DNA from: a virus
IMG/VR virus record: IMGVR_UViG_3300021091_000027
Coordinates: 32,001-96,000 of that record
Reading direction: 5' to 3' (one strand)
Length of the DNA: 64,000 bases
Under the pieces are notes generated by a model that was not told where the DNA came from, ran no database searches, and saw only the letters and a program-made list of their open reading frames with translations. This document shows, one piece after another, positions 5,871-25,476 of the stretch (its first letter is position 1; the number at the start of each line of letters is the position of its first letter). The position numbers and the translations under genes were made by a program.

Positions 5871-5871
5871 T

Positions 5872-7566
5872 ATGGAAACTCCACTAGCTGAACAACCTCC
5901 AGAAAAAATCTATGCAAAGGAAGAGCAAATACTTTCCTTTGTAAAGGCCACATACCCAAATTTAGATCTATCGCCAGGAACCATCTTGAGAGATCTGGTA
6001 GTAAAACTATATGCGCACCTCGAAACTCGTGTACAAGAGCAGATTGATCTGGCTACTATCTCTAGCAGTTTGCTTGAAATTAGCAAAAATCCTAATGTTG
6101 TAAATAATGAGCAGGTATCTAGAGTATTGTCTAATTTTAATGTTGAGCGAGGCGATGGGTCTACAGCATCCGGACTGTTAAGGCTGTTTTTAACCACAAG
6201 CTCCTCTGTAGTAATATCTCCCGATACTAAGTTTACAGTTGGCGGTGTGACCTTTAGCACCTCTTCTTCATATGTGCTAGTTACTTCGACTAATTTTACA
6301 GGAGCTGCGTCTCAAAGACTTATAGAGTCCTCGGGTACTCTGTTTACCGCTACCTTACCGGTATCGGCAACTAATCCTGGGTCCATAGGAAATGTCAGAG
6401 CATCAACGGTGATTTCTTCTATTGTCCCAGCAATATCTTCTATAGTATCTGGAAAAGCTGATTCCGATTTCATCGGAGGCGCTGATGTAGAGGACAATGT
6501 ATCTTTACTCAATAAGGCTAAGACAGGGGTGGTCGGTAAGGCGCTTTCAGGCAGGGCACACATAAATGCCAAGTTGAAGTCTCAATTTGCTGAGATAAAG
6601 GACGTCGGAGTGGTGGGATTTCTTGATCCAGAGATGCATAGAGATGTTGTCGACGAAGTCCACATAGGTAACAGAATAGATTTATATGTTAAGTCTGCAA
6701 GCTATCCTTCGAGGATAACGGAAAGGCTGCCTATGCAGATGATTTCCTATGACCATCAGTACACCCAGGAGGCGATATTTGAAATCGTGTTGCCGCCTTC
6801 TAAAGCGTCCGGCATATACACAATAGAATCTATTCGCTCTGATCTAACACAGGCTGGATCGTTTGAACTCATATCTGATAAAAGAACCATGCAGGGAAAT
6901 TCAATTCATTTGGTTTCCGATAAGGAGACTCCTGCGTTTACTTCATATCAAAATATAGTATTTAGATTTAAGATTCCATATGTTCATATAAATGAGTGCG
7001 CACTGCCGGCTAATAATGCGATGAGCTCATGGGTAAGTAATGCGGCGCCGCCTGCAATATTTCTCAATCAAGAATCGAGTACACCAGACCAGTTCCATGT
7101 ATACGTAGAATACTTAAAGATGCCTAATCTTAAGGAGGTGCAAGCTTACGTCGATTCGGCCGAGGAGCGTAGTCTCAGCGCAGACATGCTTGTAAAGGCG
7201 CCTATTCCTGTAATGTGCAGTATGCAAATGCGATTACTTAAACCTACTGGCTCTGAAAGTCCTAATGTAAATATTCTAAAATCGGCACTGGTATCTAAGT
7301 TTAATTCTTTTGGGATAGGAAAATCAATTCCAGCAAGTGCCCTAATACATACAGCTTATCAGAATTTGCCGGCCGGATATTCCATAGATCTGCCAATACA
7401 TATGTACGGCGTCATTATAAATCCAGACTTATCGAAGGATGTAATTTTTTCTTCTGATGCGCTGAGGCCTCCTAAAAACTATTCTAAGGGTGTTAGTGAA
7501 AACACCTGTGCTTTCTTCATAGAAGCTAATCTTATCGATATCTCCGTAGTGGAGTGCAACTCTTGA
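5872..7566 (+). CDS. Baseplate J-like (gp6-like) wedge protein
   Basis: YPNLDLSPGTILRDL, ASGLLRLF, ATNPGSIGNV, FIGGADVEDN motifs. Confidence 0.85.
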   Translation: METPLAEQPPEKIYAKEEQILSFVKATYPNLDLSPGTILRDLVVKLYAHLETRVQEQIDLATISSSLLEISKNPNVVNNEQVSRVLSNFNVERGDGSTASGLLRLFLTTSSSVVISPDTKFTVGGVTFSTSSSYVLVTSTNFTGAASQRLIESSGTLFTATLPVSATNPGSIGNVRASTVISSIVPAISSIVSGKADSDFIGGADVEDNVSLLNKAKTGVVGKALSGRAHINAKLKSQFAEIKDVGVVGFLDPEMHRDVVDEVHIGNRIDLYVKSASYPSRITERLPMQMISYDHQYTQEAIFEIVLPPSKASGIYTIESIRSDLTQAGSFELISDKRTMQGNSIHLVSDKETPAFTSYQNIVFRFKIPYVHINECALPANNAMSSWVSNAAPPAIFLNQESSTPDQFHVYVEYLKMPNLKEVQAYVDSAEERSLSADMLVKAPIPVMCSMQMRLLKPTGSESPNVNILKSALVSKFNSFGIGKSIPASALIHTAYQNLPAGYSIDLPIHMYGVIINPDLSKDVIFSSDALRPPKNYSKGVSENTCAFFIEANLIDISVVECNS

Positions 7567-8738: not shown

Positions 8739-8739
8739 A

Positions 8740-11486: not shown

Positions 11487-11545
11487 TTAATTTGATATAC
11501 ACTGAGCTTTTAGTACACTAGACTTTTTGGCTAGGAGGCTATTAT

Positions 11546-12484: not shown

Positions 12485-12485
12485 A

Positions 12486-15400
12486 ATGCGCATAGATAAT
12501 TATAATAGTACCAAACACGATATTTATACGTTTGATGAGACCTACCTGAGACTCATTAGCTGGGGGTTTGGCTCAGGTCCCATAATCCCTTGCGTTACAA
12601 CAGAGTATTCGTCTTATGTAAATTCCAGCGGTCAGACAATTCCAATTCCTCCCGGGGGGCCACTTCCTGATGGATTCATATTTAGACAGCACGCTCCAGT
12701 AATTGGGTATAACCCCGGAATGGTCTCTTTCCTGCAGTCAAGGGGAGTTGACGTACCTGATTTCAGCGGACTGCATGTTAGAAATAGAGGGTCAAATCTC
12801 AATAGGTTTGCGTTCAGATCTGATAGCGGCTTCATACAGGGTGAACCTTTCTGGATCCTTGCCGATAATGGAAACATTCAGAATCCGACTAACGGAATGT
12901 ATGCCGAAAATCCTATTTTTAATCCCCTTGATCACAACAATTGGAACAATGGGGTGCCGCCATTCTGCATGGTGTCTCCGAAGCACTTTCTTGGATGTAA
13001 CCACTTTGTAGGACCTGAAAATAATACAAATCAAACTATACGACTTTTAAAAAAAAATGGTGACATAGTTAATAGGGAAGGTCAATTCATATCTAGATAT
13101 GAGGATGCTAATTTATATAGACTGCTAATTCCACTTACTGAGGAAGAGCAACAACAAATTAATTGCTACGATATAGTTGACTTTAGAACTATTCCCCCTG
13201 AAGTAAAAATTTGGAGACAAGATTCAAACGGTAAATATTTAGTATATACTGTTACTCAAGGTAGCAGTTACTATTCGTCGTCTGGTTTCTCTGGATATTC
13301 GCCTATATTATATAGGCCATATCAAGACCATTCTGGAGAATTTCCAGTTCCCTGGAACCCGCCAAATACACCTTCATGGTATTCAGGTTTAGGTTTTGTT
13401 TGGAATGGTGACAGCGGAAGCCCGCTACTGCTTACTGCAAATGGAAAAACTTATTTATATGGCTTTAGTAATGGCATTATTGACTCCTTTGCCAAAAATA
13501 CTCCGCAAACTGATTGGCTATTAGGAGCGTTGGAGCAAGACGGGGTGGTAAAAAAGCTTGTAAATGCTGAAGAAGGTGGCCAGCTTATTAAATTACCTAC
13601 AGCCTATAAGGCTGGATTTTTAGAGGAAGCAGAATCTAGCGGTCTTCCATTTATAGTTAAAAATCCAAATGGAAATCCCGCTATAGTAAGTGTAAAACTT
13701 TCTGGAGAGTACAACGTATACCCCGGAGAACAGGTTTATCTTAACGACATAGAGATATCTAGTATCTTTAACACTTCAATAGATACGTCTTCTACTGAAG
13801 AAGGTTTGGTCTTTTATATACTTACATGCAACGTATACGCTGGCGATAGATTATTGATAAGTAAATCAGACTTTCAATCATCAGGAGCTTACACGGCAAA
13901 GATTGTAAATATTGGAAAATACAATCACCTTCAACTGAATATAGACGAAGGAAGGCTGGCATTGACAATAGTGTTTTTAAGTGTGCCGACGCTTGTTGAT
14001 TTTAGTCCAACAGATAACTTTCCGCTATCTCCCTTTTGCCTGGAACCTTACACTGGACAGGTATCGCTAAATTTACAAGATCGCAATATATCTACAGGAT
14101 TGTTAACTTTTTCTTCAGGATACAACTATCAATTAGATTATAAATCTGAAAATTTCACAGCAGTGAATTTTGCCGTATCAATAGGGGCTGGAGAGGGGCT
14201 GCAGCCTTGCGAAGATCTTATAGACGTACCTGGCTACCTTAGATCTATAAATGGAGTATCGCCAAACGATAGGGGCGATATAAAGTTGCAAGCCCCTTCG
14301 GAAGATTGTGTCAGTGTTGATACGGGGTACTCTGCTACGTCAGGAGGCAAAATAAAACTTGATTCTCACTGCGCCCCTTGCTGCAGATGCACCGACTATG
14401 AGAATTCATCGGACTACATAAAAGGCGTAGCGGTAAAGTACAGCGAGCTCGTAAAGCAATATAACGCTCTTGTATCCATTTATAATAATGTTCAAACTAA
14501 TTTTGAAGATAGTTTACGCTCCTGTCCAACTCAAGGAAAGCTGAATTCCAGATTTAGAATGTGGCCTCAGCAGAACTTTAAAGTTCAAGTGCAGGCCATG
14601 GTAGAAAATAATACTAATACGCCAACGATAATCAAGAAACTTAAACTTGAGTTAAGTTTAAGCCTTTACAATCCAATATCGGCGGTAGATCCGGAAACAA
14701 ATGCTACGTATCAGATGGATGAAAATGATTCTGTGGCCGCAGTACCGCTTGAGGATGCGTCGTATTTGTACTACAAGAATCTGAATCCAGTATCGCAGGG
14801 CTTCACATTTAGCGTACCGAACTCTGGATCACTTAAATTCGAGGCCGATTTGACTCAATCTGGAATGCCTGTTCCTGGCGGACCCCCAGGGCAAAGTCCT
14901 TATATAACTCCGCCATGTAGCGGGTATGCCATGATAACTGGTGGCTTTGTTATAGTTGATCCTCTGTTTAGAAAGATAGTATCGCTTAATTACAGATCAG
15001 GACTTAACATAAAATTAAATATACTATTTAAATACACTGGAACGGCTCAAGATGAGGATCCATGTAATAATCCGGACGAAGCGGAACATTTGCTAGTTCC
15101 AGCGGGAGGAGTGGAAAAGTCCATAACAATACGGCCTAATAAAAGTTCGGTTAATCCATGCGATTCAATACAGCCTAGCACAATAGCTCAATCTGTAAAT
15201 GAAGAAAATAATATTTTATTTAATTTAAACTTACCTCAAGTAACCTATGGTACCGGCCAGGTAACGATCACCTATAAATCCTTGACAGATGCAGGCTGGC
15301 AAGAGTTTTCCTCGTCTACTGTTAATATAAGTACCGGAAACGCAGGAACTCAGACAATTTCTTTAGGAGGCCTTCCAGAGAACTTAGGAAGTGGAAATCA

Positions 15401-15533
15401 CCAGGTATTGATATCCTATGTACCTGAAGCTGGTGCTAGGCTGTACACAAAGTGCGTGAGATCAGACGATTCAAATGATGTGGCGGAAATACCTGTAGCT
15501 CCATTTCAGGTAGGCAAAGCCTTTAATTTGTAA
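12486..15533 (+). CDS. Large structural protein with trypsin-like serine protease domain, paralog family member 2
   Basis: SPKHFLGCNHF (His), EDANLYRL (Asp), NGDSGSPLL (Ser); later RSINGVSPNDRGDI, HCAPCCRC, coiled coil. Confidence 0.75.
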   Translation: MRIDNYNSTKHDIYTFDETYLRLISWGFGSGPIIPCVTTEYSSYVNSSGQTIPIPPGGPLPDGFIFRQHAPVIGYNPGMVSFLQSRGVDVPDFSGLHVRNRGSNLNRFAFRSDSGFIQGEPFWILADNGNIQNPTNGMYAENPIFNPLDHNNWNNGVPPFCMVSPKHFLGCNHFVGPENNTNQTIRLLKKNGDIVNREGQFISRYEDANLYRLLIPLTEEEQQQINCYDIVDFRTIPPEVKIWRQDSNGKYLVYTVTQGSSYYSSSGFSGYSPILYRPYQDHSGEFPVPWNPPNTPSWYSGLGFVWNGDSGSPLLLTANGKTYLYGFSNGIIDSFAKNTPQTDWLLGALEQDGVVKKLVNAEEGGQLIKLPTAYKAGFLEEAESSGLPFIVKNPNGNPAIVSVKLSGEYNVYPGEQVYLNDIEISSIFNTSIDTSSTEEGLVFYILTCNVYAGDRLLISKSDFQSSGAYTAKIVNIGKYNHLQLNIDEGRLALTIVFLSVPTLVDFSPTDNFPLSPFCLEPYTGQVSLNLQDRNISTGLLTFSSGYNYQLDYKSENFTAVNFAVSIGAGEGLQPCEDLIDVPGYLRSINGVSPNDRGDIKLQAPSEDCVSVDTGYSATSGGKIKLDSHCAPCCRCTDYENSSDYIKGVAVKYSELVKQYNALVSIYNNVQTNFEDSLRSCPTQGKLNSRFRMWPQQNFKVQVQAMVENNTNTPTIIKKLKLELSLSLYNPISAVDPETNATYQMDENDSVAAVPLEDASYLYYKNLNPVSQGFTFSVPNSGSLKFEADLTQSGMPVPGGPPGQSPYITPPCSGYAMITGGFVIVDPLFRKIVSLNYRSGLNIKLNILFKYTGTAQDEDPCNNPDEAEHLLVPAGGVEKSITIRPNKSSVNPCDSIQPSTIAQSVNEENNILFNLNLPQVTYGTGQVTITYKSLTDAGWQEFSSSTVNISTGNAGTQTISLGGLPENLGSGNHQVLISYVPEAGARLYTKCVRSDDSNDVAEIPVAPFQVGKAFNL

Positions 15534-15541
15534 GGAATCAT

Positions 15542-17101
15542 ATGAGAGTAGTAACCAGAGATTTTCTAAACGATAACGAGTTTAAATCGTATCCTATAGA
15601 TATAAGGGCTACCTACGAGCCCTATTACTCTACTGATAAAGTCTCCAGCATAAATTGTCTCCTTACGGATATGTCTATAACTATTCCGGAAAGTGCAGCG
15701 GCTTGCATATTTATAGCAAACATTTCAATAACCCGATCTCTAATATCTATGACTATAATGGGATCTAAGTCTCATCCCTTTTCCGATAATGCGCCGGATG
15801 CCGACGACTACTCCTTGGAGTACTCCATGCTTGGATCCTACGTTGTCGCCACTGTAGAAACTCGTAGACAAACAAATATGAATGGGGTTACCGTTGCTAT
15901 ATCTCCAAAAATTCCAGGAGTCGGTGGATGGATAACCTTTGGATCTGGGGCCTCTAAGGAAGGCGTTTGGATATTTCAAGGGCCTAGCAGTTCTATGATT
16001 TCAGATTTTTGCATAACCAAATACTCCTATGGAGGTGTGACCACTATTGGAAGATTGGGGTATGACACAGTTTTGGATGGCAGAGTCGAAATGACTGGGC
16101 AAAACGGAATTGAAATACAGCCGGATTCCGATAAGAATGAAATAATAATACGGTTCTCTGGAACATCCAACGAAATAAAACAATCCTTGAGACAATATTC
16201 AGGTGCATGTGGCGGCAGACCTGAATCTGAAACGTGCAGTTTCAGCCCCATAAAAACTATAAATGGGATAAGACCAGAAGGATTAAATTCTGAGATAGTG
16301 CTGGTATTGGATCGTCCACTTTATGCAACCATAACTAACCAGCAGACTGAAAGAGAGAATTTCAAGATATCCTCGGATATTCCATTGGAATCTTTCTGCA
16401 AGGGCAGAATATCCATACCTGAAAGTTGTGCCTCCTCTCAAAGTCTTACAAATATTTTAAAGCAGGCATTCAACGAGACTACAAGTCAGATAGTCCCCGA
16501 TCCATCCATAAAATTGGTATTTGAGGTTCATAGCACAGGGGCACATGTCTTTACTATATTCAATTATAGCCATCAAAATCCATTGAATGCAGGACAAGCC
16601 ATATTCAAGTCTAATGGCAGCGTCAATGTGTTGGGGGAGTCGCTGAATGAGTTGGTTATTGACATGGCTCTTGGAGAGTGGCAAATGTATGGGGTGTCCG
16701 GAGTAAGCATGACTTTATTCGGATCCCTACTGAATAATCTAAGAGCTTTCAAAGAAATTACATATCAGGGGATTACATATCAGGTGTATATTGGCATAGC
16801 TACGGTCTATGATCTGCAGGAAGTGTATGCCGTGGATGTAATTATATCTGCCCCAGACTCATTTGAGGAGGCTGGAAAATATGTTCGTATAGCACATTCT
16901 AGATATGTGCATTCAAATAATCCAGAATACTCCCTTGAATTGAGAGGAACTGGAAATTCTTGGATACTGTCTAAAAATGGAATGTTGTTAGGGGCTGGAA
17001 CGCTAGATGACCAAGGATTCGATTCTAAAGTTCAGTCATACGTTCGTACCAATGGCGAGTCTGCGATAAGAAGTTTGGCTATTAGGAAGGCTGCAGAATG
17101 A
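15542..17101 (+). CDS. Structural protein, paralog family member 3
   Basis: DFLNDNEFKSYPI, CGGRPESETC, KTINGIRP; AAGGA SD. Confidence 0.65.
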   Translation: MRVVTRDFLNDNEFKSYPIDIRATYEPYYSTDKVSSINCLLTDMSITIPESAAACIFIANISITRSLISMTIMGSKSHPFSDNAPDADDYSLEYSMLGSYVVATVETRRQTNMNGVTVAISPKIPGVGGWITFGSGASKEGVWIFQGPSSSMISDFCITKYSYGGVTTIGRLGYDTVLDGRVEMTGQNGIEIQPDSDKNEIIIRFSGTSNEIKQSLRQYSGACGGRPESETCSFSPIKTINGIRPEGLNSEIVLVLDRPLYATITNQQTERENFKISSDIPLESFCKGRISIPESCASSQSLTNILKQAFNETTSQIVPDPSIKLVFEVHSTGAHVFTIFNYSHQNPLNAGQAIFKSNGSVNVLGESLNELVIDMALGEWQMYGVSGVSMTLFGSLLNNLRAFKEITYQGITYQVYIGIATVYDLQEVYAVDVIISAPDSFEEAGKYVRIAHSRYVHSNNPEYSLELRGTGNSWILSKNGMLLGAGTLDDQGFDSKVQSYVRTNGESAIRSLAIRKAAE

Positions 17102-17973
17102 ATTCATTAAATAACTTAGGGTGGAGAAACCTTAATTCAATGAGGAATTACCCTTTCACCGATTCCTCAACTTTATCTATGAATAGTTTATTTCTGCCCC
17201 AAACATGGATACTGGATGCTAGAGTTTATTGCAACAACTCTTATGAAGCAACGGAGACTCCATATATATCTAAGATTATAAAGACAGAGCTATTAATATC
17301 ATTAGTTATATCTTCATCAAATGGCGAAGAGATCGGAGAAGCCAAAGTATTCTTAAATAAGACTGATGACTCAATTAAAATCGCAGATTCAAAAGGATTT
17401 ACAAATGGATGTATAGTTATAGATCCAAATAGTACAGCTTTGGCTCAAGCCTTGCCTGATGGTGAAACCGAATTAGTTCCATCAGTAGCTAGATTTTTAC
17501 CACATGTATGTCAATACTTGCCAGGTCCGCAAGTTCAAAGTATAAATGGAAAACATGGAAATATTGAATTAGTAGCAGAAGTTGGAGTAAAGCTTACTGC
17601 TGTTTCACATGAGAGCAGCTCATCCACCGAACATACGAGCACTATAAGAATAGATTTGATAGGAGATCCTCATTTTACTAGATATAACTGTATAACAGGC
17701 GCAAACGATCAGACAGATGACATATTTGAGTTAAGTTCAAGATTTTTGAAGAGATTAAAAGTTTTGCATTATGTAAAAAGTCCAAGTACCGGACAAATTA
17801 CTGGGCCGTATAAAAGTTCGCTAAAGAGGAAAAAGAACGGATCGATAATGCTGGCTCTATCCACTCCATTGAGCGATCCTAGCGGTACTACTGTTGAAAT
17901 AAGAGAAGCAAGACCTTCTTTTAGAATTCAAGTATCAGATAACAAAATAACTCTAAATTTAGCAGGTGCATAA
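17098..17973 (+). CDS. Structural protein, paralog family member 4
   Basis: GWRNLNSMRNYPF, VQSINGKHGNI. Confidence 0.65.
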   Translation: MNSLNNLGWRNLNSMRNYPFTDSSTLSMNSLFLPQTWILDARVYCNNSYEATETPYISKIIKTELLISLVISSSNGEEIGEAKVFLNKTDDSIKIADSKGFTNGCIVIDPNSTALAQALPDGETELVPSVARFLPHVCQYLPGPQVQSINGKHGNIELVAEVGVKLTAVSHESSSSTEHTSTIRIDLIGDPHFTRYNCITGANDQTDDIFELSSRFLKRLKVLHYVKSPSTGQITGPYKSSLKRKKNGSIMLALSTPLSDPSGTTVEIREARPSFRIQVSDNKITLNLAGA

Positions 17974-18944
17974 TGTATGAATATTTTAAGACAGTAAGCT
18001 ATCCATTAAAGGAATTTAACTCGGATTACTTTTCGGAGAATCAAAATGATGCTATAAAATCTACGATAGTAGATTTTGGCATCAATATATACGGTTTATC
18101 GCCAGAACTTGAAAATCTTATAATTGGGACACCTAGGATATTTTTAACAGAAATTGGATCCTCCGACTCCTATTCTTTAATACTTAAATTACAATTAATG
18201 ATAACAATCGACGACTTAGACTTCTCTTTAGCTGGCGGGGACTTATCAGTTTCTACAGATACTCACCCAGCAAATGAAGAATTTATTAGAGTTTATTTTG
18301 ATAGTGAGGACTTTGAATCGCCCGGCTTTATTATTGATGGATTTCTGTGCTTAAATAATTACTCAAAATTAATTAGAGTATTAGATGGAACAATCTTTAA
18401 TCCTCCAAATATGGAATTTGAGCCTACAACTATAAATTTCTTTTCTAGGCATAGGGTAAATAGTATAACTTGTAAAAACTCAAAGCCTCTAATAATGCAA
18501 AAAGCTAATGAGCTGATACACCAACCTCCACAGGATCCGGTATTTGGAGATATAAAGCTAGTGCCCGGAAATAATTGCACTATATCTGTGCGACCTCAAA
18601 CTAATACAGTAATTATAGGGGCAGTTTTAAATGCTAATGACACCCCCGAAGAAATCTGCGGAGTGTGGAAAGATAAAATTTCAGGTACAGGTTCAAAAGA
18701 TTTACTTTGTAGTGAAGTTGTGTATTCTATAGCTGGCGCAAAGCCAGATAATTTTGGCAATATTGAAATACAGGCAAATACGCCTCTTAGTGTTAACGCT
18801 TTAGTAAAAGATGATTTACCAACTCCATTTAAAACTTTTATAAACGGATCTAGTTCAGAGTTTTCCCCTATAATACACTATATATACATAGGGCTCCCCC
18901 AATCTAATGGGAATTCAAGTGTATTTGATTGTCAAACGGAGTAA
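17973..18944 (+). CDS. Structural protein, paralog family member 5
   Basis: YFKTVSYPL, GDIKLVPGNNC, YSIAGAKPDNFGNI. Confidence 0.6.
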   Translation: MYEYFKTVSYPLKEFNSDYFSENQNDAIKSTIVDFGINIYGLSPELENLIIGTPRIFLTEIGSSDSYSLILKLQLMITIDDLDFSLAGGDLSVSTDTHPANEEFIRVYFDSEDFESPGFIIDGFLCLNNYSKLIRVLDGTIFNPPNMEFEPTTINFFSRHRVNSITCKNSKPLIMQKANELIHQPPQDPVFGDIKLVPGNNCTISVRPQTNTVIIGAVLNANDTPEEICGVWKDKISGTGSKDLLCSEVVYSIAGAKPDNFGNIEIQANTPLSVNALVKDDLPTPFKTFINGSSSEFSPIIHYIYIGLPQSNGNSSVFDCQTE

Positions 18945-18953
18945 CTAGTTCCA

Positions 18954-20156
18954 ATGCCACTAGCTCTAGACTCATGCGTACCAATTAATCCAGTAGTATC
19001 TGGGACAACCTGCGTGACTAACGGAGAAGTAAGTTGCGACACTGGAATTATTCCAATTAAAAAATGTGGACCCGATCCTAACAATCCTACAGCAGAAATA
19101 AAATGCGTAAATGACATAGTCAGAAGACCTTGGCCTACTCCGCCACCTGCTGAAATAGGCTGCAATCCTCTAACGGTAAATATTGAAAATACAGTACCAG
19201 ACGAAGACGACCCCGATCAGACAATGAGGTTGGAGGGTAGCGTCGGTTATATATCTGGGGATGCCTGTTTGCCAAAGGTTAATCTAAAGCTAGTGGCTCC
19301 GCCCAGCATACTTATTGGGGGCGGATCTCCGAACGTATACGGATCAGGATACAATCTAAATGGGATTTGTCATCCAGTAGGGCCAACAAGTGAAGCTGAA
19401 TTTAAGACTCCTCAGCAGTTTTTGGGTAATGAAAGAAATGCTCACTTGTTTACGCCCACTAGCAACTTTCAAGAAGCTCAAAGCCGTTGTCAAGATTCAT
19501 GCGATAGAAGAAGCCGATATGGAGCCAGTGCGGCAAGGTTTAATATTATTGGACCTTTCTTAGCATCAATAACTTCACGTCAGGCTATCGGGCAAACAAC
19601 AATACCTTATACAAATGAAAACGGGGAATCAGTAACTGAGGTCGTAGTTTTTGCCTGGAGGTATGGCTTCAATGCCGAGCAATGCGTAATTGCAGGAAAC
19701 GCATGTCAATATCCTTGTGCACCTACAAATAGCTGGGCACAATATCCTAGTGATCTTGAGTACATGCTGGCATTTAATATAAAAGAAAATTTGGAAAATC
19801 CCTACAGCTCTGGAGATAAGATATACGGAGTGGGGGTCAATCTCAGCGACATGCTTAGTAAAGGATACAGACCTCAACCAATAATGTTAGGGGCAATGGT
19901 TATGGTGTATGGCTATATAAGTTGGGGCACAAGTATTGAATATCAGAGCAGCGGATCAGGAACTACATCTGAGGCAGATCCAACTACCTGCGACTGTCCA
20001 GTGGTGTGGTTTATAGATGAACAGAATGCTTTTGATGGACAATGCCGAGAAAGCGAAACTTCTGATGCTGTCCAAGCACTATCTAATCTACCTCAAAGAA
20101 ACGTAACTTCTGCAGGTATGTTCTTCGGAGTAAACGACAATGCCAATAGAGTTTAA
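18954..20156 (+). CDS. Cys/Pro-rich hypothetical structural protein
   Basis: 400 aa with many dispersed Cys and Pro; within tail operon. Confidence 0.6.
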   Translation: MPLALDSCVPINPVVSGTTCVTNGEVSCDTGIIPIKKCGPDPNNPTAEIKCVNDIVRRPWPTPPPAEIGCNPLTVNIENTVPDEDDPDQTMRLEGSVGYISGDACLPKVNLKLVAPPSILIGGGSPNVYGSGYNLNGICHPVGPTSEAEFKTPQQFLGNERNAHLFTPTSNFQEAQSRCQDSCDRRSRYGASAARFNIIGPFLASITSRQAIGQTTIPYTNENGESVTEVVVFAWRYGFNAEQCVIAGNACQYPCAPTNSWAQYPSDLEYMLAFNIKENLENPYSSGDKIYGVGVNLSDMLSKGYRPQPIMLGAMVMVYGYISWGTSIEYQSSGSGTTSEADPTTCDCPVVWFIDEQNAFDGQCRESETSDAVQALSNLPQRNVTSAGMFFGVNDNANRV

Positions 20157-20574
20157 AAGTGTTGTACATAGACACTCAATTCAAACTGGAATAGTTCCCA
20201 GTTCAACAGAGCTATATCCTGGCGAATTGGCACTTAATTTAATTGATCAAAAGTTATTTACTATGGGCGTCGGCGGAAACATAATAGATCTTACGTCGGC
20301 TAATTCGATGTTTTCTTTTTCCGGCGTTACAGCAGGAGCTGTGCTCATATATGACTCTGCTTCAAGTAGATTCATTTCAGAAGGCGGAGCAAGCTATATA
20401 AGAGCCGTAGCCGATGTACCAGCTAGAGACGCTATACTTCCTGAAAGAAGACAGGTAGGAATGTTGGTGTATGTCGTAGATGTCGGTAAATACTATACTC
20501 TTACAGATGGAATACTTAATACTGATTGGGTAGAGTTTGACGGAGTGCTAACAATGGATGGAGGGGTGTACTGA
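20140..20574 (+). CDS. Small tail-fibre-associated protein
   Basis: VPSSTELYPGELALNLIDQKLF fibre N-terminal collar motif; ARDAILPERRQVGMLVYV module; terminal DGGVY. Confidence 0.65.
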   Translation: MPIEFKSVVHRHSIQTGIVPSSTELYPGELALNLIDQKLFTMGVGGNIIDLTSANSMFSFSGVTAGAVLIYDSASSRFISEGGASYIRAVADVPARDAILPERRQVGMLVYVVDVGKYYTLTDGILNTDWVEFDGVLTMDGGVY

Positions 20575-20984
20575 TGGCAAGATTTTCTATAAGCTTTGCA
20601 ACAAATGTCATGTATGAGGCTGACAAAGATCCTGTATACAGGGTGAGGGTATCCACTGGGCTGCAGGAGCCTGCAAACTTTTCCGCAATTGATTCAAATT
20701 TATTGGTTATAAGTAGAAATAAAAATAGCGATAGCGACTACGTAGATACGTTTTACGGAATAATTAAGCCTTCCGACTTTGCGGCAATGAGTAAAAACAA
20801 ACCTAAGCCTGGAGTAAATTTCTACAGGGCTGCTGAATGGAATTTAATATTCTATAATTTAAAAACCATGAATGAAGCAATTACTCTAATGAAAAAGCAG
20901 ATTGATATACTGGCAGAGGACATGACGGTTTTCTTTAGAGAGCAAAATAATCGCTACGAAACACACATATCGACCTCATTTTAA
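20574..20984 (+). CDS. Hypothetical protein
   Basis: 136 aa, TGATG-coupled. Confidence 0.6.
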   Translation: MARFSISFATNVMYEADKDPVYRVRVSTGLQEPANFSAIDSNLLVISRNKNSDSDYVDTFYGIIKPSDFAAMSKNKPKPGVNFYRAAEWNLIFYNLKTMNEAITLMKKQIDILAEDMTVFFREQNNRYETHISTSF

Positions 20985-20996
20985 TAGGGTATTTTC

Positions 20997-21284
20997 ATGG
21001 AAAAAAAATTTGCAATGACGTACGCTACCATAAACGCTCTTCTTAATAACGAAGAGGTAAGACAGATAAGCCCCTTGATTAAAAATGCTTATGATGTTGT
21101 AAACTCAGATATAACATCATCTGGGTGTTCATCTTGTGCTAAAAGAAAGAAGCTGAATGATGCTGCAATTTCGCTTTTAAGCCAACTTCAAAGCGCCTCA
21201 GACATGGAGTTAGATAGAATAAAGAAAGCCCTAGGTGTAGATAAACTAGTGTTTGCAAGTGGGTTTAAGGCTATCGAGCGGTGA
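20997..21284 (+). CDS. Small CxxC protein
   Basis: 95 aa, GCSSCAKRKK. Confidence 0.6.
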   Translation: MEKKFAMTYATINALLNNEEVRQISPLIKNAYDVVNSDITSSGCSSCAKRKKLNDAAISLLSQLQSASDMELDRIKKALGVDKLVFASGFKAIER

Positions 21285-22318
21285 TGTCGACCAATCCAGC
21301 TATACCTTGTTGCTGCATAAGTCCTAAATTTGTATGCTGCAAAACATACGCTGTAGCTTTAACTTGCCCTGTGGAACAGATAGGGGATGATTGCGATGTA
21401 ATTTCAGGGGTTCCTCCAGAAGTTAAATGCGAGTATGAATATAAAATAGTTTCATGTGTGGATAGTGAGGAGGAGTGTGTATGTGAGGAAATATCTGAAC
21501 AAGAGGTGACAGGTACTGGAGGATTCGGCAGCGGTGGCGGCGGCGGTGGAATGGGCGGTAGCTCTGGAGGCCTCCCACCAGGACATACAATATCTGCATG
21601 CATATCAGCTGTATTTCATAATATAAAGTGTGAAAATAATCAACCTCCTAACGACAGGGAGATTTGCAAGAACGACAAAAATAGACCGTGTTGCAAAAAA
21701 GAATGCGGCCCGTGTGGACCTATGGCCGCCGGATGCGCAGATGACTGCCCTCCTCCAAATTGCGAAGAACAGGAGTGTTGTGAGCCTCCGCCTCCTACGC
21801 TATGCTGCTGCTCTACTATTGAAGGGGGCGAATGCTCAGTTAAAACTTGCGGTCCATGCCCTCCTGATCCCATTCCTCCAAACTGTTATCAGGTCCCTGC
21901 CTGCGATCAGTGTACAGATGGGCCAGATGACTGTACTTTTTACCAATCAGCCTTATGTTGTCCAACCGAGTTCTGCTGTTGCAACCCGGAGGCGACCTGC
22001 GACTGCTGCGACGGCAGCATCCCTGCCTGCTGCGAATGCGAGGAGCCCGGCTGCGTGCGTTTCAAGTGCATATGTCCGTGTGGTTCAGGCCCACCGTCAG
22101 GTCCGCCTCTTTGTATGGGATGTGGTCAACCTACGGCAAACCCAGCGGGTTGTTTGGCGTTGGGGCTCCAGACCGAAATGCAACATCCCGGAAATAAATT
22201 TGAGGATAACTTTGGTACCTTCGTAGAAAACAGTATTGAGAAGGGATTGATAAAAACTAAGACTGATGTTAAGCTGAACACCTTGTTTCTATTTGGCTAT
22301 GGATATAAAAATCTATGA
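21281..22318 (+). CDS. Extremely Cys-rich (about 50 Cys), Pro/Gly-rich protein
   Basis: CCC, CC and CxC clusters, poly-Gly linker; overlaps neighbours by GTGA/ATGA. Confidence 0.7.
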   Translation: MMSTNPAIPCCCISPKFVCCKTYAVALTCPVEQIGDDCDVISGVPPEVKCEYEYKIVSCVDSEEECVCEEISEQEVTGTGGFGSGGGGGGMGGSSGGLPPGHTISACISAVFHNIKCENNQPPNDREICKNDKNRPCCKKECGPCGPMAAGCADDCPPPNCEEQECCEPPPPTLCCCSTIEGGECSVKTCGPCPPDPIPPNCYQVPACDQCTDGPDDCTFYQSALCCPTEFCCCNPEATCDCCDGSIPACCECEEPGCVRFKCICPCGSGPPSGPPLCMGCGQPTANPAGCLALGLQTEMQHPGNKFEDNFGTFVENSIEKGLIKTKTDVKLNTLFLFGYGYKNL

Positions 22319-23247
22319 GAGCAATTCATTCATATAAGTTTGATAAGTTAAGACCGCTATTAGAATCTATTGGCGGGGCGTCAGTGGTAAAGCCAATTAT
22401 AACCATGATGGCGCTTTCGGCAGTCAGTATACGCAAACATCATGATGACTTTGTCCTGATTACAGACGATATTGGAGCTGAACTTGCTAAAGCATGTAGT
22501 TTGCCTTACTCAAAGGTCGTTTCAGTTGGTTATGAGTTTGGTTCGCACGAATGTTTCTGGATTCACAGTAAGCTGCACACCTACGCAACAATAGATTGCC
22601 CATTTGTTCACTACGATATCGATTTATTTTTGTGGGATCCGCTTCCAAAAGAATTTTTAGATAACGATATATTTAACTTTTACTCAGAGGCCCACGTTTG
22701 GCCTAGATATGAACAGATCCTTGAAAATTTCATTGCCTCAGGTGTAAAGGTTCCACTTTACGATAAACTATACCCTGAGAATAAATCTCCATTAAATATG
22801 GCGATATTTGGAGGGCACGACATAAAAACCATTAAATCCTGTGGTCAAGAACTTTTAGATTTAATGGAAACTAATGATAGATTTTATAACAAGTCAGATG
22901 AGATAGTATACGCAATAGAAAATGGAATTTCCTATATAGAACAAGCGCTAAGTTCTTACATACTTCAGAGCAAACATAGAAAAAGAGTAGTGCCACTTCT
23001 AAAAGAGCATCAGGTATTATCCGGAAAAACCGTTCCAGGGATTAAGGTAACGCACTTGCACTCCTTGAAACAAGTAGCACAAGCCCAAGGAAAAATTAAT
23101 GAATTACAAGCAAAACTTGACAGTAAGTTGAAATATCTGGCTCCAGACGTACACTCTGCCGTAGCAAAGTTTACTAAAGTTAAAGTTAATATAGATGACA
23201 TGATAAAGGAGGCAAACTTAAATGATTCGAATCTCACCAATAAATAA
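22315..23247 (+). CDS. DUF6734-like putative nucleotide-sugar transferase (GT-A, DxD)
   Basis: FWIHSKLHTY..PFVHYDIDLFLWDPLP, NMAIFGG, IEQ motifs. Confidence 0.6.
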   Translation: MRAIHSYKFDKLRPLLESIGGASVVKPIITMMALSAVSIRKHHDDFVLITDDIGAELAKACSLPYSKVVSVGYEFGSHECFWIHSKLHTYATIDCPFVHYDIDLFLWDPLPKEFLDNDIFNFYSEAHVWPRYEQILENFIASGVKVPLYDKLYPENKSPLNMAIFGGHDIKTIKSCGQELLDLMETNDRFYNKSDEIVYAIENGISYIEQALSSYILQSKHRKRVVPLLKEHQVLSGKTVPGIKVTHLHSLKQVAQAQGKINELQAKLDSKLKYLAPDVHSAVAKFTKVKVNIDDMIKEANLNDSNLTNK

Positions 23248-23497
23248 ACATGAACAGATTCAAGACGAGGGTCTCAGAGTATATATAGAGGGGGTTGCTC
23301 CATTGGCTCTCACCTCGCCAGAGGCTCAAAGGATGGTATTTAATTACGTAAAAGAAGCAGGTCTGAAAGAATATGGAATGAATAAGTTTGTAGCTATGGA
23401 GTCACGTAATCTCAGCAATAATGATTTATATCCTTATAAAGGATATTGGCTAATGCTTCCAAATCAGTGGAATCAAAAGAAGACAGTTAAAGTATGA
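23222..23497 (+). CDS. Hypothetical protein
   Basis: 91 aa in operon. Confidence 0.55.
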   Translation: MIRISPINKHEQIQDEGLRVYIEGVAPLALTSPEAQRMVFNYVKEAGLKEYGMNKFVAMESRNLSNNDLYPYKGYWLMLPNQWNQKKTVKV

Positions 23498-23784
23498 GTA
23501 CCACTTTAACCAACGCTGAACAAAAGATATTTGTACGGAAAAGCGAGTTCGCAGATAAACTAATACCCATATGTGAAGCCTTAAAGTTAGCAGGATTCGA
23601 AATTGCAACAATTGCAGATATTATGGAAAATCTGCAAAACGAAAAAGAACTTCCTGCTAAGTTTTCAATCATAAATAATAGATATCTCGTGTATAAGAAG
23701 GATTTGGTATACGATTTATATAAATCGACTGCAATTGAGCAGCCGGATGAACAGAAAAGAATGGCGATTATATTTTGGATTTAG
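23494..23784 (+). CDS. Hypothetical protein
   Basis: 96 aa, ATGA-coupled. Confidence 0.55.
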   Translation: MSTTLTNAEQKIFVRKSEFADKLIPICEALKLAGFEIATIADIMENLQNEKELPAKFSIINNRYLVYKKDLVYDLYKSTAIEQPDEQKRMAIIFWI

Positions 23785-24094
23785 CATGGAAGTAAAGCTG
23801 CGCAACAATACTTGGAAAATAGTTAAAATGGATTTAGGGCCCTCTATAAGAGGAGAAATAGATCCACCGAGCTATGTAAATAAAAGCATAAGAATTTCAA
23901 CTAGGCTTAGAAAAAGTCAGGAGATTTTGGAGGTACTTCTTCATGAATGCCTGCACGGATGCTTTTGGGACATAGACGAGGAAGCTGTGGAAAGAGCGGC
24001 TTTCGATATCTCTAGAGCACTTTACAAACTAGGTGCAAGAGTAGACGCAAGCAAGCTATCTAAGAAAATAACAAATACTACTAGGGGCTCTTAA
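23735..24094 (+). CDS. Small HExxH metallopeptidase-like protein (true start may be the ATG at 23786)
   Basis: EVLLHECLHG..DEEAVE zincin-like motif. Confidence 0.65.
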   Translation: MSSRMNRKEWRLYFGFSMEVKLRNNTWKIVKMDLGPSIRGEIDPPSYVNKSIRISTRLRKSQEILEVLLHECLHGCFWDIDEEAVERAAFDISRALYKLGARVDASKLSKKITNTTRGS

Positions 24095-24146
24095 GGGCAA
24101 GCTAAGGCGGATGATTCGCCTTCCCCCCAATAAACGCCCCATACGT

Positions 24147-24184
24147 AACAAAACCCAGGGTTCATGGGCCCTGGGTTTTGTTTT
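24147..24184. terminator. Bidirectional rho-independent terminator between convergent operons
   Basis: Perfect 14-bp inverted repeat AACAAAACCCAGGG/CCCTGGGTTTTGTT with A- and T-tracts; second small hairpin at 24104-24122. Confidence 0.8.
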
Positions 24185-24202
24185 AATATGTCTATTAAGT
24201 TT

Positions 24203-24778
24203 TTAGAGTAAACCTTTTTGAATTAGCCTTCTTTGAAAATCTCTTGCCAGCTGTTGTTTAAGCTCTGGGTCGGAGAACACCTCTACATCACCTAGATCTG
24301 CTCCAACCGGCAGGTTTTGCATCAAGTTTTCAATTTCCTTATTCTTTCTTACTTTCTTACCATAGCCGTACATTGCTCCAGCGCCGCCTCCCAGTAGAGC
24401 GCCTATAGCTGCGCCAAGTGGAGCATTAGAGCCTCTTAAAGCTCCGACGCTTCCGCCTAATCCTCCGCCCAATAAAGCTCCCAAGGCTCCTGCGCCCAAG
24501 CCTGCCCACGATGGACTGGATAGGCCTGAAGATACTGGGTCTGCTGGGGTGCTAAATAACATTGGCAAAATCTTGGCTTTAGCTTTGTCTATTTCATCAA
24601 TTTCGTCTTTAGTAAAGTATCTTTTGCAACCAAATCCGGGGGTGCACTTGATAGGAACATCTACTATGGATTCTGAAGATGAGATTTCGGCTTTTTTCTC
24701 GGAGATGTCCGCACAGCTTTCTTTAAGCCATCTTCTTAGATCTGCCTTCTTTAAATTAATGTATGCATCAAGATTCAT
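24203..24778 (-). CDS. Glycine-zipper protein, putative virion internal/ejected protein
   Basis: WAGLGAGALGALLGGGLGG..GAAIGALLGGGAGAMYG; KKA motifs near N-terminus. Confidence 0.65.
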   Translation of the reverse strand: MNLDAYINLKKADLRRWLKESCADISEKKAEISSSESIVDVPIKCTPGFGCKRYFTKDEIDEIDKAKAKILPMLFSTPADPVSSGLSSPSWAGLGAGALGALLGGGLGGSVGALRGSNAPLGAAIGALLGGGAGAMYGYGKKVRKNKEIENLMQNLPVGADLGDVEVFSDPELKQQLARDFQRRLIQKGLL

Positions 24779-25476
24779 TTAGACACTCCCTTTGCAAACC
24801 CTGATACAAACTTATTCCATGACCTAGAGTCCTTATTCATCAATGGCACGTTGTTAAGCTCCAGCATCATCTTGCTGGTCCTCCTATCGACATATGCCTG
24901 TACGTCATCTTTGAATTTAATTTGATTTTGGATCATTATTTGAAGTTGTACGGTATCTGTAGCGTAGGATTCCATATTTGCTACATAATCGTTTGGGCCC
25001 ATTTCCGCTACTTTTGAAAGCGATGGAGGCAAACGATAGAGGCCCAGCTCCTTACAGATCTCGCCTATATATCTACGAACTTCTGGACTGAGACGCTCAG
25101 GGGTGTTGGAGTCCAGCATAGTGAGCTCGGTAATAGCCCAAGCACATTCATATGGATCGGCTATGTCAAAGACGTCATAGCTCATAGGTGTTCCACTTAA
25201 AACATTGGCACAGTTCATAAAAGTGGACACATCTGTATGAACTAGGTCGGTCGTCAAAGAGTTCCAAAGTGCCCATATTTTATCGGTGTTCACATCAGGG
25301 ATATCAGATACTGAAAACCCCTCCTCAAGCTCCTGACGAAATGCCTGAGGGTCCATATCAAAGATCTCCTGACCGTAAGAGTCCAGAATCATAGTAAGCA
25401 GCACAGTGCCGACGGTATCCCGACTTTTCCACAGCTGATCGTACGCTTTAGATGCTGTTATGCTTTTAATTGGCAT
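24775..25476 (-). CDS. Hypothetical protein (probable head module)
   Basis: 233 aa globular ORF in the minus-strand operon. Confidence 0.65.
   Translation of the reverse strand: MPIKSITASKAYDQLWKSRDTVGTVLLTMILDSYGQEIFDMDPQAFRQELEEGFSVSDIPDVNTDKIWALWNSLTTDLVHTDVSTFMNCANVLSGTPMSYDVFDIADPYECAWAITELTMLDSNTPERLSPEVRRYIGEICKELGLYRLPPSLSKVAEMGPNDYVANMESYATDTVQLQIMIQNQIKFKDDVQAYVDRRTSKMMLELNNVPLMNKDSRSWNKFVSGFAKGVSK

What the first reader, a model, noticed from the sequence alone, without database searches (positions are those of the whole stretch)
21281..22318. Protein with ~15% cysteine, reminiscent of minicollagen/keratin-associated proteins, in a phage tail operon
Seen: about 51 Cys in 345 aa by hand count (CCC three times, many CC/CxC/CxxC), poly-Pro runs and a Gly linker; no signal peptide evident; locally GC-richer around 21960-22100. 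Phages assemble in a reducing cytoplasm, so this is odd. Inference: a polymetallic (metallothionein-like) or post-lysis disulfide-crosslinked virion appendage. Cys/Pro-rich envelope proteins are known in PVC-superphylum bacteria, which is only a weak host hint.
Basis: partly seen in the sequence, partly recalled or inferred. Interest (0 to 1): 0.72.

Follow-up and report, generated by a model that had tools for sequence, protein, structure and literature searches.

The report
Hypervariable disulfide-knot protein in phage tail-fibre operon
An uncultured large phage encodes, at the end of its baseplate and tail-fibre operon, a real 344-residue protein that is 15% cysteine; its relatives always carry an odd number of cysteines while everything between the cysteines evolves about as fast as silent sites, which points to a disulfide-braced, fast-changing virion surface protein (probably a host-recognition part) on a scaffold not described before.

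Summary
The ORF at 21284-22318 (+) has 51 Cys in 344-345 aa, against a proteome mean of 1.4%. The frame is real. About 20 distinct relatives exist, all 312-393 aa and all from metagenomes or viromes, with 24-25 invariant Cys columns. The rival +1 frame is closed in all six related loci.

Three new results:
- All 34 family sequences have an odd Cys count (39 to 57). Distant Cys pairs (68/107, 177/202) are lost together in independent lineages and replaced by residues that do not bind metals. This is a disulfide signature, with one spare Cys.
- Between close relatives the gene has dN/dS of 1.0 and keeps every Cys, while eight neighbouring genes run at 0.05-0.33 (Fisher p 1e-10 to 1e-20).
- It always sits in the same block, translationally coupled between a highly conserved 95-aa CxxC protein and a DUF6734 protein, downstream of Baseplate_J and fibre-like genes.

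No Pfam, PHROG, PDB or fold match was found, and no DGR.

Best reading (about 0.45): a virion-exposed, disulfide-braced hypervariable adhesin or fibre accessory. A metallothionein-like role is not supported. Virion location, the disulfides and the host are all inferred, not shown. Other first readers in this scan noted the same stretch on this genome only.

The parts
21284..22318 (+). Cys-rich gene ('CysR'), 344 aa from ATG 21284 (the ORF lister gives GTG 21281); 51 Cys
   Evidence: The family has about 20 distinct relatives of 312-393 aa with 24-25 invariant Cys columns. All 34 sequences have an odd Cys count. dN/dS is 1.0 between close relatives against 0.05-0.33 for neighbours.
21284..21343 (+). 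Conserved N-terminal motif (NPAIPCCC, then CC about 7 residues later); five invariant Cys in the first 20 residues
   Evidence: Alignments A1 and A2. Mean pairwise identity for residues 2-12 is 0.72, against 0.29-0.46 for the body.
21506..21580 (+). Gly-rich, Cys-free linker (residues 76-100), variable in length among relatives
   Evidence: pLDDT is below 50 here.
21923..22180 (+). Most variable, indel-rich Cys/Pro segment (residues 215-300)
   Evidence: Non-Cys identity is 0.24. dN and dS are highest here in the L003/L005 comparison. The AlphaFold2 model is low-confidence here.
22181..22315 (+). Cys-free conserved C-terminal module ending LFLFGYGYxxL; candidate docking or oligomerisation element
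   Evidence: All five invariant non-Cys columns (G322, F338, G339, Y340, L345) lie here, and identity is 0.57.
20997..21284 (+). 95-aa partner protein with invariant G-C44-S-x-C47-x-K-[RK]-K; its TGA stop overlaps the ATG of CysR
   Evidence: dN/dS is 0.05-0.12. The model has pLDDT 82.6, with the CxxC at the N-cap of helix 45-65. No fold match was found.
22315..23247 (+). DUF6734 protein; its ATG overlaps the CysR stop (ATGA); conserved HYDxD, NMAxFGG and THLH motifs
   Evidence: PF20508 at 4.6e-29. It is syntenic in all related loci. Alignment A5. No PDB or other Pfam match.
18954..20156 (+). 400-aa protein with 16 conserved Cys and a Cys/Pro-rich N-terminus; second-fastest gene of the block
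   Evidence: 70-83% identity where other neighbours keep 82-96%.
20140..20574 (+). 144-aa protein with weak similarity to tail-fibre N-termini
   Evidence: PHROG hits include phrog_1699 (long tail fiber distal subunit, 3e-06) and phrog_25379 (tail protein).
5872..7566 (+). Baseplate J-like wedge protein; marks the start of the baseplate and fibre block on the same strand
   Evidence: PF04865 at 1.6e-11, above the cut-off; phrog_6 at 1.2e-21.

Best explanation
CysR is a structural accessory of the tail-fibre/baseplate apparatus of an uncultured large phage, most likely an exposed adhesin or fibre-tip/decoration protein.

Proposed mechanism:
- The chain has few hydrophobic residues (20% LIVMFWY) and is acidic (net charge -26), so it cannot fold around a hydrophobic core.
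- Instead, about 12 invariant and up to about 28 total intrachain disulfides brace it into an elongated beta-hairpin body.
- The short loops between the cysteines are free to change and are driven to change by the host.
- The conserved N-terminal CCC/CC motif and the Cys-free C-terminal LFLFGYGY module dock it to the conserved part of the virion.
- The one cysteine left over in every family member either makes a covalent link to a partner, as in the disulfide-tethered fibres of cyanophage Pam3, or sits on a symmetry axis.
- Oxidation would happen at or after lysis, possibly helped or held back by the coupled 95-aa CxxC protein.

Shown here: the gene is real, the Cys framework is conserved, Cys numbers are always odd and change in pairs, evolution is near-neutral or faster outside the Cys, and the gene sits in a fixed coupled block of the fibre operon.

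Inferred: the disulfides themselves, virion location, receptor binding, and the roles of the two neighbours.
For: 1. The gene and family are real. There are 10+14 hits among 5.8e9 proteins and 15 among 1.8e9 representatives, all full-length, with 24-25 invariant Cys columns.
2. Parity. All 34 sequences have 39, 41, 43, 45, 49, 51 or 57 Cys. Eight independent sister pairs with different Cys patterns all differ by an even number (2^-8 if parity were free).
3. Paired loss. C68 and C107 are lost together in two non-sister sequences (replaced by A/K and N/A). C177 and C202 are lost together in P0007, P0012, P0013, P0017 and the P0022 group (Y/S, V/S, F/T, F/V, R/S). C227 is lost together with a Cys about 13 residues downstream in three lineages.
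4. dN/dS is 1.00-1.03, or 1.14-1.17 without the conserved Cys codons, in three close pairs, with all 41 Cys kept. Eight neighbours run at 0.05-0.33. Fisher p values are 9e-18, 3e-10 and 1e-20. dS is similar to the neighbours, so this is not a swapped cassette.
5. Synteny and coupling are fixed in seven loci at 30-64% identity, downstream of Baseplate_J and fibre-like genes.
6. AlphaFold2 gives confident long beta-hairpins for residues 10-210, with pLDDT up to 91.
7. The other block proteins keep even Cys counts (10, 16, 6, 4, 6, 16) in three related phages (L002, L003, L005) that are only about 30% identical to the window in CysR.
8. Precedents for disulfides in phage tails: Pam3 fibres are released by DTT (PMC9942802), and a siphovirus tail tube carries inter-ring disulfides (PMC13576161).
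Against: - No virion proteomics, expression data or structure exists for any member.
- There is no signal peptide, so the protein is made in a reducing cytoplasm.
- No Erv, thioredoxin, glutaredoxin or DsbA family gene was found in the 111-kb record. CheckV rates that record only 62% complete.
- Several invariant CxxC motifs (142/145, 190/193, 208/211) could be zinc ligands. The parity rule cannot exclude invariant Cys4 sites.
- The parity sample is phylogenetically structured, and per-branch parsimony on the unstable variable-region alignment was uninformative.
- In the pair closest to the window (window vs L007), dN/dS is 0.46 and does not differ significantly from the neighbours (p=0.15).
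- dN/dS near 1 also fits a non-structural arms-race protein.
- The C-terminal half of the model is low-confidence, and model coordinates could not be inspected for S-S distances.
Confidence: 0.45

Rival explanations
1. CysR is a metal-cluster protein. Most cysteines would bind Zn, Cu, Cd or Fe-S clusters in the reducing cytoplasm, either as the structural glue of a fibre part or as a metallothionein-like metal store or sink.
For: The protein is made in the cytoplasm without a signal peptide. It has many CC, CxC and CxxC motifs, and four or five invariant CxxC-type pairs could form Cys4 sites. It is acidic. Metal ions on fibre axes are common in phage fibres (my own knowledge: T4 gp12 and gp37).
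Against: Cys counts step by two, not four, and are always odd. Lost Cys pairs lie 25-39 residues apart and are replaced by A, K, N, S, V, F, Y, T or R, never by His or Asp. His is absent from several members. No metallothionein or zinc-finger Pfam family matches any of 20 members at E<=10. Fast loop evolution is not expected of a metal store.
Confidence: 0.15
2. CysR is not a virion part. It would be an arms-race effector, made late and acting in the infected cell or released at lysis, for example an inhibitor or decoy for a host defence or surface factor. It would sit in the structural operon only for timing.
For: dN/dS near 1 with a conserved scaffold is also typical of anti-defence and host-interaction proteins. 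No homology to any structural protein was found. DUF6734 and the small downstream ORFs are not known structural proteins either.
Against: The gene holds a fixed position, translationally coupled, inside a long fibre operon across phages that share only 30% identity in it. The conserved terminal modules look like docking elements. A disulfide signature makes little sense for a protein acting in the cytoplasm. The other fibre-block proteins also keep even Cys counts. PADLOC was not searched.
Confidence: 0.15
3. CysR is the substrate or scaffold of a small modification module. The DUF6734 enzyme (with a DxD-like motif, possibly a glycosyltransferase) and the CxxC protein would modify CysR, for example by S- or O-glycosylation or thiol chemistry. 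Alternatively, CysR polymerises by disulfide exchange into a crosslinked sheath or glue, as minicollagens and spore-coat CotY/ExsY do.
For: The three genes are always adjacent and overlap at their start and stop codons. DUF6734 has invariant HYDxD, NMAxFGG and THLH motifs, which from memory recall GT-A/GT8 transferases. The spare Cys and the CCC runs would suit intermolecular exchange.
Against: A polymerising glue would not be expected to evolve at dN/dS of about 1. This reading can coexist with the best explanation rather than replace it.
Confidence: 0.1
4. CysR is an assembly factor (chaperone or scaffold) for the Cys-containing fibres, needed in the cell but not kept in the particle.
For: Fibre chaperones are usually encoded next to fibre genes (my own knowledge: T4 gp38/gp57A, lambda Tfa). 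The upstream fibre proteins carry conserved Cys motifs such as CxxPCCxC.
Against: Chaperones are usually conserved with their client. Here the conserved gene is the 95-aa one (dN/dS 0.05-0.12) and CysR is the fastest gene of the block. At 344 aa with about 25 fixed Cys, it is an odd chaperone.
Confidence: 0.08
5. It is not a gene: a chance ORF, or the overlapping +1 frame is the real one.
For: The +1 frame is open for 199 codons in this window.
Against: The +1 frame has 12-19 stops in all six related loci, and the CysR frame has none. There are 24-25 invariant Cys columns, conserved termini and only in-frame indels.
Confidence: 0.01

Closest known systems
T-even gp38-type adhesins (e.g. phage S16 gp38) at the tip of the long tail fibre
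   Same: Both are encoded late in the fibre gene block. Both have conserved docking parts and a repetitive small-residue scaffold that holds hypervariable segments and evolves fast. This is described in PMC12032242 (abstract) and in the Pam3 paper's comparison.
   Different: In gp38 the scaffold is a polyglycine sandwich of Gly-rich motifs with no cysteine framework. There is no sequence, PHROG or fold similarity. Attachment of CysR to a fibre tip is not shown.
Disulfide-tethered tail parts of phages: cyanophage Pam3 fibre-wedge links, and the siphovirus gp39 tail tube
   Same: Cysteines in tail proteins made in the cytoplasm end up as disulfides in the virion. In Pam3 a single fibre Cys links covalently to the wedge and DTT releases the fibres (PMC9942802). 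In the siphovirus, inter-ring disulfides stabilise the tube (PMC13576161). A spare Cys in CysR could act the same way.
   Different: Those proteins use one to a few Cys in otherwise ordinary folds. CysR has 39-57 Cys (11-15%) and appears to depend on them for folding. There is no homology.
Small disulfide-rich hypervariable scaffolds of eukaryotes (conotoxins, defensins, Giardia VSPs, minicollagen and keratin-associated proteins)
   Same: An invariant Cys framework, loops evolving at or above the neutral rate, a low hydrophobic content and Pro/Gly richness (my own knowledge for the comparison; the CysR data come).
   Different: Those proteins are secreted through an oxidising compartment and have even Cys counts per domain. 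CysR has no signal peptide, is a phage protein, and matches none of their Pfam families.
Metallothioneins
   Same: High Cys content with CC, CxC and CxxC motifs.
   Different: Metallothioneins are small (about 60 aa) with about 30% Cys and few aromatic residues or beta structure. CysR is 344 aa, has 18 Phe+Tyr, has predicted long beta-hairpins, follows a parity rule, and has no Pfam match.
DGR-diversified receptor-binding proteins (Bordetella phage Mtd type)
   Same: A hypervariable phage tail protein on a fixed scaffold.
   Different: There is no template repeat and no reverse transcriptase in the 111-kb record. Variation is spread along the whole chain and is not confined to a C-terminal variable region.

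Membership tests
Metallothionein families (Pfam) | Sequence match to a metallothionein profile | tested here: not met
   hmmscan of all 20 members of A2 against Pfam-A at E<=10 found no Cys-rich family at all.
Metallothionein families (Pfam) | Small size, about 30% Cys, few aromatic residues, Cys used as metal ligands | tested here: not met
   The protein has 344 aa, 14.8% Cys, and 11 Phe + 7 Tyr. Odd Cys counts and paired losses to non-ligand residues argue against ligand sets. Metal content is not testable here.
Keratin-associated, minicollagen and other eukaryotic Cys-rich structural families | Profile match, or the characteristic Cys-rich domain pattern | tested here: not met
   No Pfam match for any member at E<=10. 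No PDB sequence match for profile A2 at E<=1.
gp38-type tail-fibre adhesins | Sequence or fold similarity to gp38 (Gly-rich motif sandwich) | tested here: inconclusive
   No PHROG family at E<=0.01. No Foldseek hit in PDB or BFVD at E<=0.001, and the best VIA Z is 3.6. The C-terminal half of the model is low-confidence.
gp38-type tail-fibre adhesins | Located at the fibre tip and binds the receptor | not testable with these tools
   Only gene position and evolutionary rate bear on this.
DGR target proteins | A cognate template repeat and a reverse transcriptase | tested here: not met
   blastn (word size 7) of the gene against the 111-kb record found only itself. PF00078 was absent at E<=1. 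The record is an estimated 62% complete.
Disulfide-bonded virion tail proteins (functional class, as in Pam3) | Cys pairs behave as disulfide partners in evolution (parity, paired loss) | tested here: met
   34 of 34 sequences have odd Cys counts. All eight independent contrasts are even. The 68/107 and 177/202 pairs are lost together.
Disulfide-bonded virion tail proteins (functional class, as in Pam3) | Disulfides and virion location shown chemically (mass spectrometry, DTT sensitivity) | not testable with these tools
   No cultured member exists. tblastn against 50,697 phage records found no relative.
Erv1/ALR sulfhydryl oxidases (for the 95-aa CxxC neighbour) | PF04777 profile match, or a five-helix FAD-binding fold | tested here: inconclusive
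   PF04777 was not found in six frames at E<=1. The model (pLDDT 82.6) gave no Foldseek hit at E<=0.001 and a best VIA Z of 4.0, to unrelated chains.
DUF6734 (PF20508) for the downstream neighbour | Profile match above the gathering score | tested here: met
   102 bits against a cut-off of 27. All four orthologues match.

The most novel reading that the evidence does not exclude
Phages of this lineage have a receptor-binding scaffold of a new kind: a cytoplasmically made, 40-57-cysteine 'disulfide ladder' whose loops are diversified by ordinary mutation under positive selection. It would be folded or kept in check by a dedicated, co-translated mini CxxC redox partner, and covalently latched to the fibre by its single spare cysteine. 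This would be a phage counterpart of knottin/conotoxin-type hypervariable binders, and a virus-encoded oxidative-folding pair in bacteria.
Probability: 0.25. Interest if true: 0.85.

Novelty: new variant of a known kind. Interest (0 to 1): 0.62.

Why it matters
If the reading is right, this adds a new structural solution to a central problem in phage biology: how to keep a host-recognition part stable outside the cell while changing its surface quickly. Known solutions are beta-helices, Gly-rich sandwiches, and C-type lectin folds diversified by DGRs. A dense disulfide framework would be a fourth.

It would also raise a concrete question about when and how about 20-28 disulfides form in a protein made in a reducing bacterial cytoplasm, with a candidate helper (the 95-aa CxxC protein) encoded beside it.

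Compact disulfide-braced hypervariable scaffolds are also sought as binder frameworks.

The strict odd-Cys rule is a simple, testable regularity that any structural model of the protein must explain.

Tried and rejected
- Searches with CysR that found nothing: Pfam, PHROGs and NCBIfam; PDB by sequence profile; Foldseek against PDB and BFVD; VIA wide search, best Z 3.6; ESM Atlas; tblastn against 50,697 phage records; GTDB genome contigs.
- The neighbours g516, Baseplate_J and DUF6734 have no cultured-phage relatives by tblastn. The best TerL hit is 29% identical, to Salmonella phage Arash.
- Erv-like oxidase idea for the 95-aa CxxC protein: no profile or fold support.
- Thioredoxin, glutaredoxin, DsbA and Thioredoxin_4 are absent from the record and from two related fragments.
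- DGR: rejected.
- Paralogues of CysR in the genome: none. There is only a non-significant 57-residue match to the Cys-rich N-terminus of the 400-aa protein (E=0.11).
- Glycosyltransferase identity of DUF6734: could not be shown.
- Per-branch parsimony of Cys gains and losses: uninformative, because the variable-region alignment is unstable.
- Host assignment: no tRNAs in the window and no bacterial relatives of DUF6734 by pattern scan. An SD-like purine signal precedes about half of the genes, which argues weakly against hosts that rarely use SD sites. The PVC hint is unsupported.
- Promoter and terminator scan of 11000-25000: nothing above shuffled expectation.
- Model coordinates are not exposed, so S-S distances could not be checked.
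Full report
**1. What is there**

The ORF lister gives 21281-22318 (+), 345 codons from a GTG. A script counts 51 Cys (14.8%), 40 Pro and 38 Gly, with CCC three times, 12 overlapping CC, 8 CxC and 6 CxxC.

Relatives begin MSxNP or MGSYNP, and the identical database copy is 344 aa. The real start is therefore the ATG at 21284. It shares one base with the TGA stop of the upstream 95-aa gene. The stop of the Cys-rich gene in turn overlaps the ATG of the next gene (ATGA at 22315-22318).

The window is part of a single 111,051-bp IMG/VR virus record, which CheckV estimates to be 62% complete. Over 110 ORFs of that record the mean Cys content is 1.4%, and the next real gene has 4%.

It lies mainly in codon positions 1 and 2, so it follows from the Cys/Pro/Gly/Ala composition.

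**2. It is a real gene of a small, phage-only family**

- A word-indexed search of 5.8e9 proteins gave 10 hits.
- A full HMMER pass over 1.8e9 cluster representatives gave 15 hits, including one spurious Gly-linker match.
- A profile search added a few more.

All true hits are full-length, at 312-393 aa. No fused or split forms appeared in the search without a length filter.

In an alignment of 34 distinct sequences, 24 columns are invariant Cys and 34 columns are at least 90% Cys. Only five non-Cys columns are invariant, and all lie in the C-terminal LFLFGYGYxxL module.

It carries 12-19 stops in each of six related loci, while the Cys frame has none.

No member matches any Pfam family even at E<=10. 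There is no match in PHROGs, NCBIfam or PDB sequences either.

**3. Context**

Genes are packed on the + strand from 5008 to 24094. Baseplate_J lies at 5872-7566. Several large proteins of unknown family follow. Then comes a 144-aa protein with weak tail-fibre N-terminal PHROG hits, a 136-aa protein, the 95-aa CxxC protein, CysR, DUF6734 (PF20508, 4.6e-29) and three small ORFs. TerL lies further on, on the opposite strand.

The same order is seen in IMG/VR and metagenome loci L002, L003, L005, L007, L008 and L011. The gene lengths in L002 run 516, 277, 309, 376, 92, 133, 94, CysR, 304 aa. CysR itself is only 30-64% identical to the window copy in these loci.

No cultured phage carries relatives of CysR, DUF6734, g516 or the Baseplate_J protein, and TerL is at best 29% identical to a cultured phage. 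This is a deep uncultured lineage, and its host is unknown.

**4. The cysteines behave like disulfide partners**

Every one of the 34 sequences has an odd number of Cys: 39, 41, 43, 45, 49, 51 or 57. Eight phylogenetically independent sister pairs with different Cys patterns differ by 4 to 26 Cys columns, and always by an even number. If parity were free, the chance would be 2^-8.

Specific distant Cys are lost together:
- 68 and 107 in two non-sister sequences, replaced by A/K and N/A.
- 177 and 202 in P0007, P0012, P0013, P0017 and the P0022 group, replaced by Y/S, V/S, F/T, F/V and R/S. There is one exception, P0015, which lost only 202.
- 227, together with a Cys about 13 residues downstream, in three lineages. 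The exact column depends on the alignment.

The replacements are never His or Asp, and several members have no His at all. The chain has only 20% LIVMFWY and a net charge of -26, so it needs covalent or metal bracing to fold.

Steps of two, loss in pairs to non-ligand residues, and one spare Cys fit intrachain disulfides plus one unpaired Cys. They do not fit metallothionein-type clusters. Invariant CxxC pairs could still form a few Cys4 zinc sites, and parity cannot exclude that.

**5. It is the fastest-evolving gene of the block**

Nei-Gojobori estimates for three close pairs (L003, L005, L011) give CysR a dN/dS of 1.00-1.03, or 1.14-1.17 once the conserved Cys codons are removed. All 41 Cys are kept.

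The eight flanking genes run at 0.05-0.33. The 92-aa gene is nominally higher, but on only 6-7 changes. Fisher tests on nonsynonymous against synonymous counts give p values of 9e-18, 3e-10 and 1e-20.

The dS of CysR (0.08-0.15) is like that of its neighbours, so this is acceleration of amino-acid change and not cassette replacement. One 40-codon segment in the variable region has both rates raised and may be mosaic.

At larger distances CysR falls to 44-56% identity, while neighbours keep 82-96%. The 400-aa Cys-containing protein is second fastest, at 70-83%.

In the window/L007 pair CysR is again the most diverged gene (67% identity), but its dN/dS of 0.46 does not differ significantly from the neighbours (p=0.15).

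No DGR explains the variation: there is no template repeat and no reverse transcriptase.

**6. Structure**

AlphaFold2 on the 20-sequence alignment gives mean pLDDT 61. Residues 10-210 are confident (blocks of 80-91) and form long beta-hairpins with strands of 15-21 residues. The Gly linker and residues 215-345 are low-confidence.

Foldseek against PDB and BFVD, and an exhaustive VIA search, gave nothing above background; the best Z was 3.6. This shows no recognisable fold. It does not prove the fold is new.

**7. The neighbours**

The 95-aa protein forms a tiny family of 14 clusters, 57-92% identical. It has an invariant G-C-S-x-C-x-K-[RK]-K motif and a dN/dS of 0.05-0.12.

Its model (pLDDT 82.6) puts the CxxC at the N-cap of a long helix followed by basic residues. 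That geometry is typical of redox-active dithiols (my own knowledge). No Erv, thioredoxin or other fold match was found.

DUF6734 has invariant HYDxD, NMAxFGG and THLH motifs. I could not tie it to any enzyme family. Atlas clusters place the family in tailed phages and Bacteroidota, and it is also present in Bacteroides thetaiotaomicron.

No known thiol oxidoreductase family is present in the record.

**8. Interpretation**

The combination is what one expects of an exposed virion part under host-driven selection:
- a fixed place in the fibre operon;
- conserved end modules;
- a rigid Cys framework;
- loops that change as fast as silent sites;
- an elongated beta-rich body.

I read CysR as a disulfide-braced adhesin or fibre accessory. 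It would work like gp38-type adhesins, with a conserved scaffold and hypervariable segments, but it is not a member of that family.

Disulfides in phage tails are documented. In cyanophage Pam3, fibres are tied to the wedge through a single fibre Cys and are released by DTT (PMC9942802). In a siphovirus, inter-ring disulfides stabilise the tail tube (PMC13576161). The reducing-cytoplasm objection is therefore not fatal. Oxidation at or after lysis is the simplest route, and the spare Cys could make a Pam3-like covalent tether.

What is new is the scale (39-57 Cys per chain), the strict parity rule, the near-neutral loop evolution and the dedicated CxxC partner.

I put about 0.45 on this reading. 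The main rivals are a metal-cluster protein (0.15), a non-virion arms-race effector (0.15), a modification or crosslinking module (0.10) and an assembly factor (0.08). Virion location, the disulfide chemistry, the oligomeric state, the partner roles and the host are all inferred.

**9. Verdict**

This is a real orphan family with unusual, quantifiable evolutionary behaviour. It is a new variant of known kinds: phage fibre adhesins and disulfide-stabilised tails. Interest is moderate to high, and experiments would settle the question quickly.

Noticed in passing
window 20997-21284 (+): A 95-aa protein with an invariant GCSxCxK[RK]K motif. It forms a tiny family (14 clusters, 57-92% identical) always encoded immediately upstream of the Cys-rich gene. 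Its dN/dS is 0.05-0.12. The CxxC is predicted at a helix N-cap. No fold match was found. It is a candidate dedicated redox or assembly partner.
   Followed up: partly
window 22315-23247 (+): A DUF6734 protein with invariant HYDxD, NMAxFGG and THLH motifs, always downstream of the Cys-rich gene. The motifs recall GT-A-type transferases, but no sequence similarity to any enzyme family or solved structure could be shown.
   Followed up: partly
window 11546-20156 (+) and loci L002, L003, L005: The fibre/baseplate proteins of the block keep the same even Cys counts (10, 16, 6, 4, 6, 16) in three related phages (L002, L003, L005). In the window two of them are odd instead (17 and 7). Two carry a CxxPCCxC-type motif (CAKPCCGC, CAPCCRC) just before a predicted coiled-coil-like stretch. 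Disulfide use may be general in this lineage's tail.
   Followed up: partly
window 18954-20156 (+): A 400-aa protein with 16 conserved Cys and a Cys/Pro-rich N-terminus. It is the second-fastest-evolving gene of the block (70-83% identity where others keep 82-96%). It may be a partner of the Cys-rich protein or a second host-contact part.
   Followed up: partly
L003/L005, alignment columns 241-280 of the Cys-rich gene (corresponds to about window 22000-22120): One 40-codon segment has both dS (0.50) and dN (0.35) several-fold above the rest of the gene between close relatives. This suggests a locally exchanged (mosaic) piece inside the variable region.
   Followed up: no
window 12486-15533 (+) vs L002 2643-4598, L003 2664-4562: The 1015-aa protein of the window corresponds to proteins of only 631-651 aa in the related phages, so this fibre-block gene has gained or lost about 370 residues.
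   Followed up: no
whole record G000 (111,051 bp): About half of 95 ATG-started ORFs have a 4-mer Shine-Dalgarno core, with a purine-rich peak at -13 to -8. There are no tRNA genes in the window. TerL is at most 29% identical to any cultured phage. This is a deep uncultured lineage with no host assignment.
   Followed up: partly
window 3989-5011 (+): A phage-encoded sigma-factor-like protein (phrog_351, 4.8e-17) lies just upstream of the baseplate genes.
   Followed up: no
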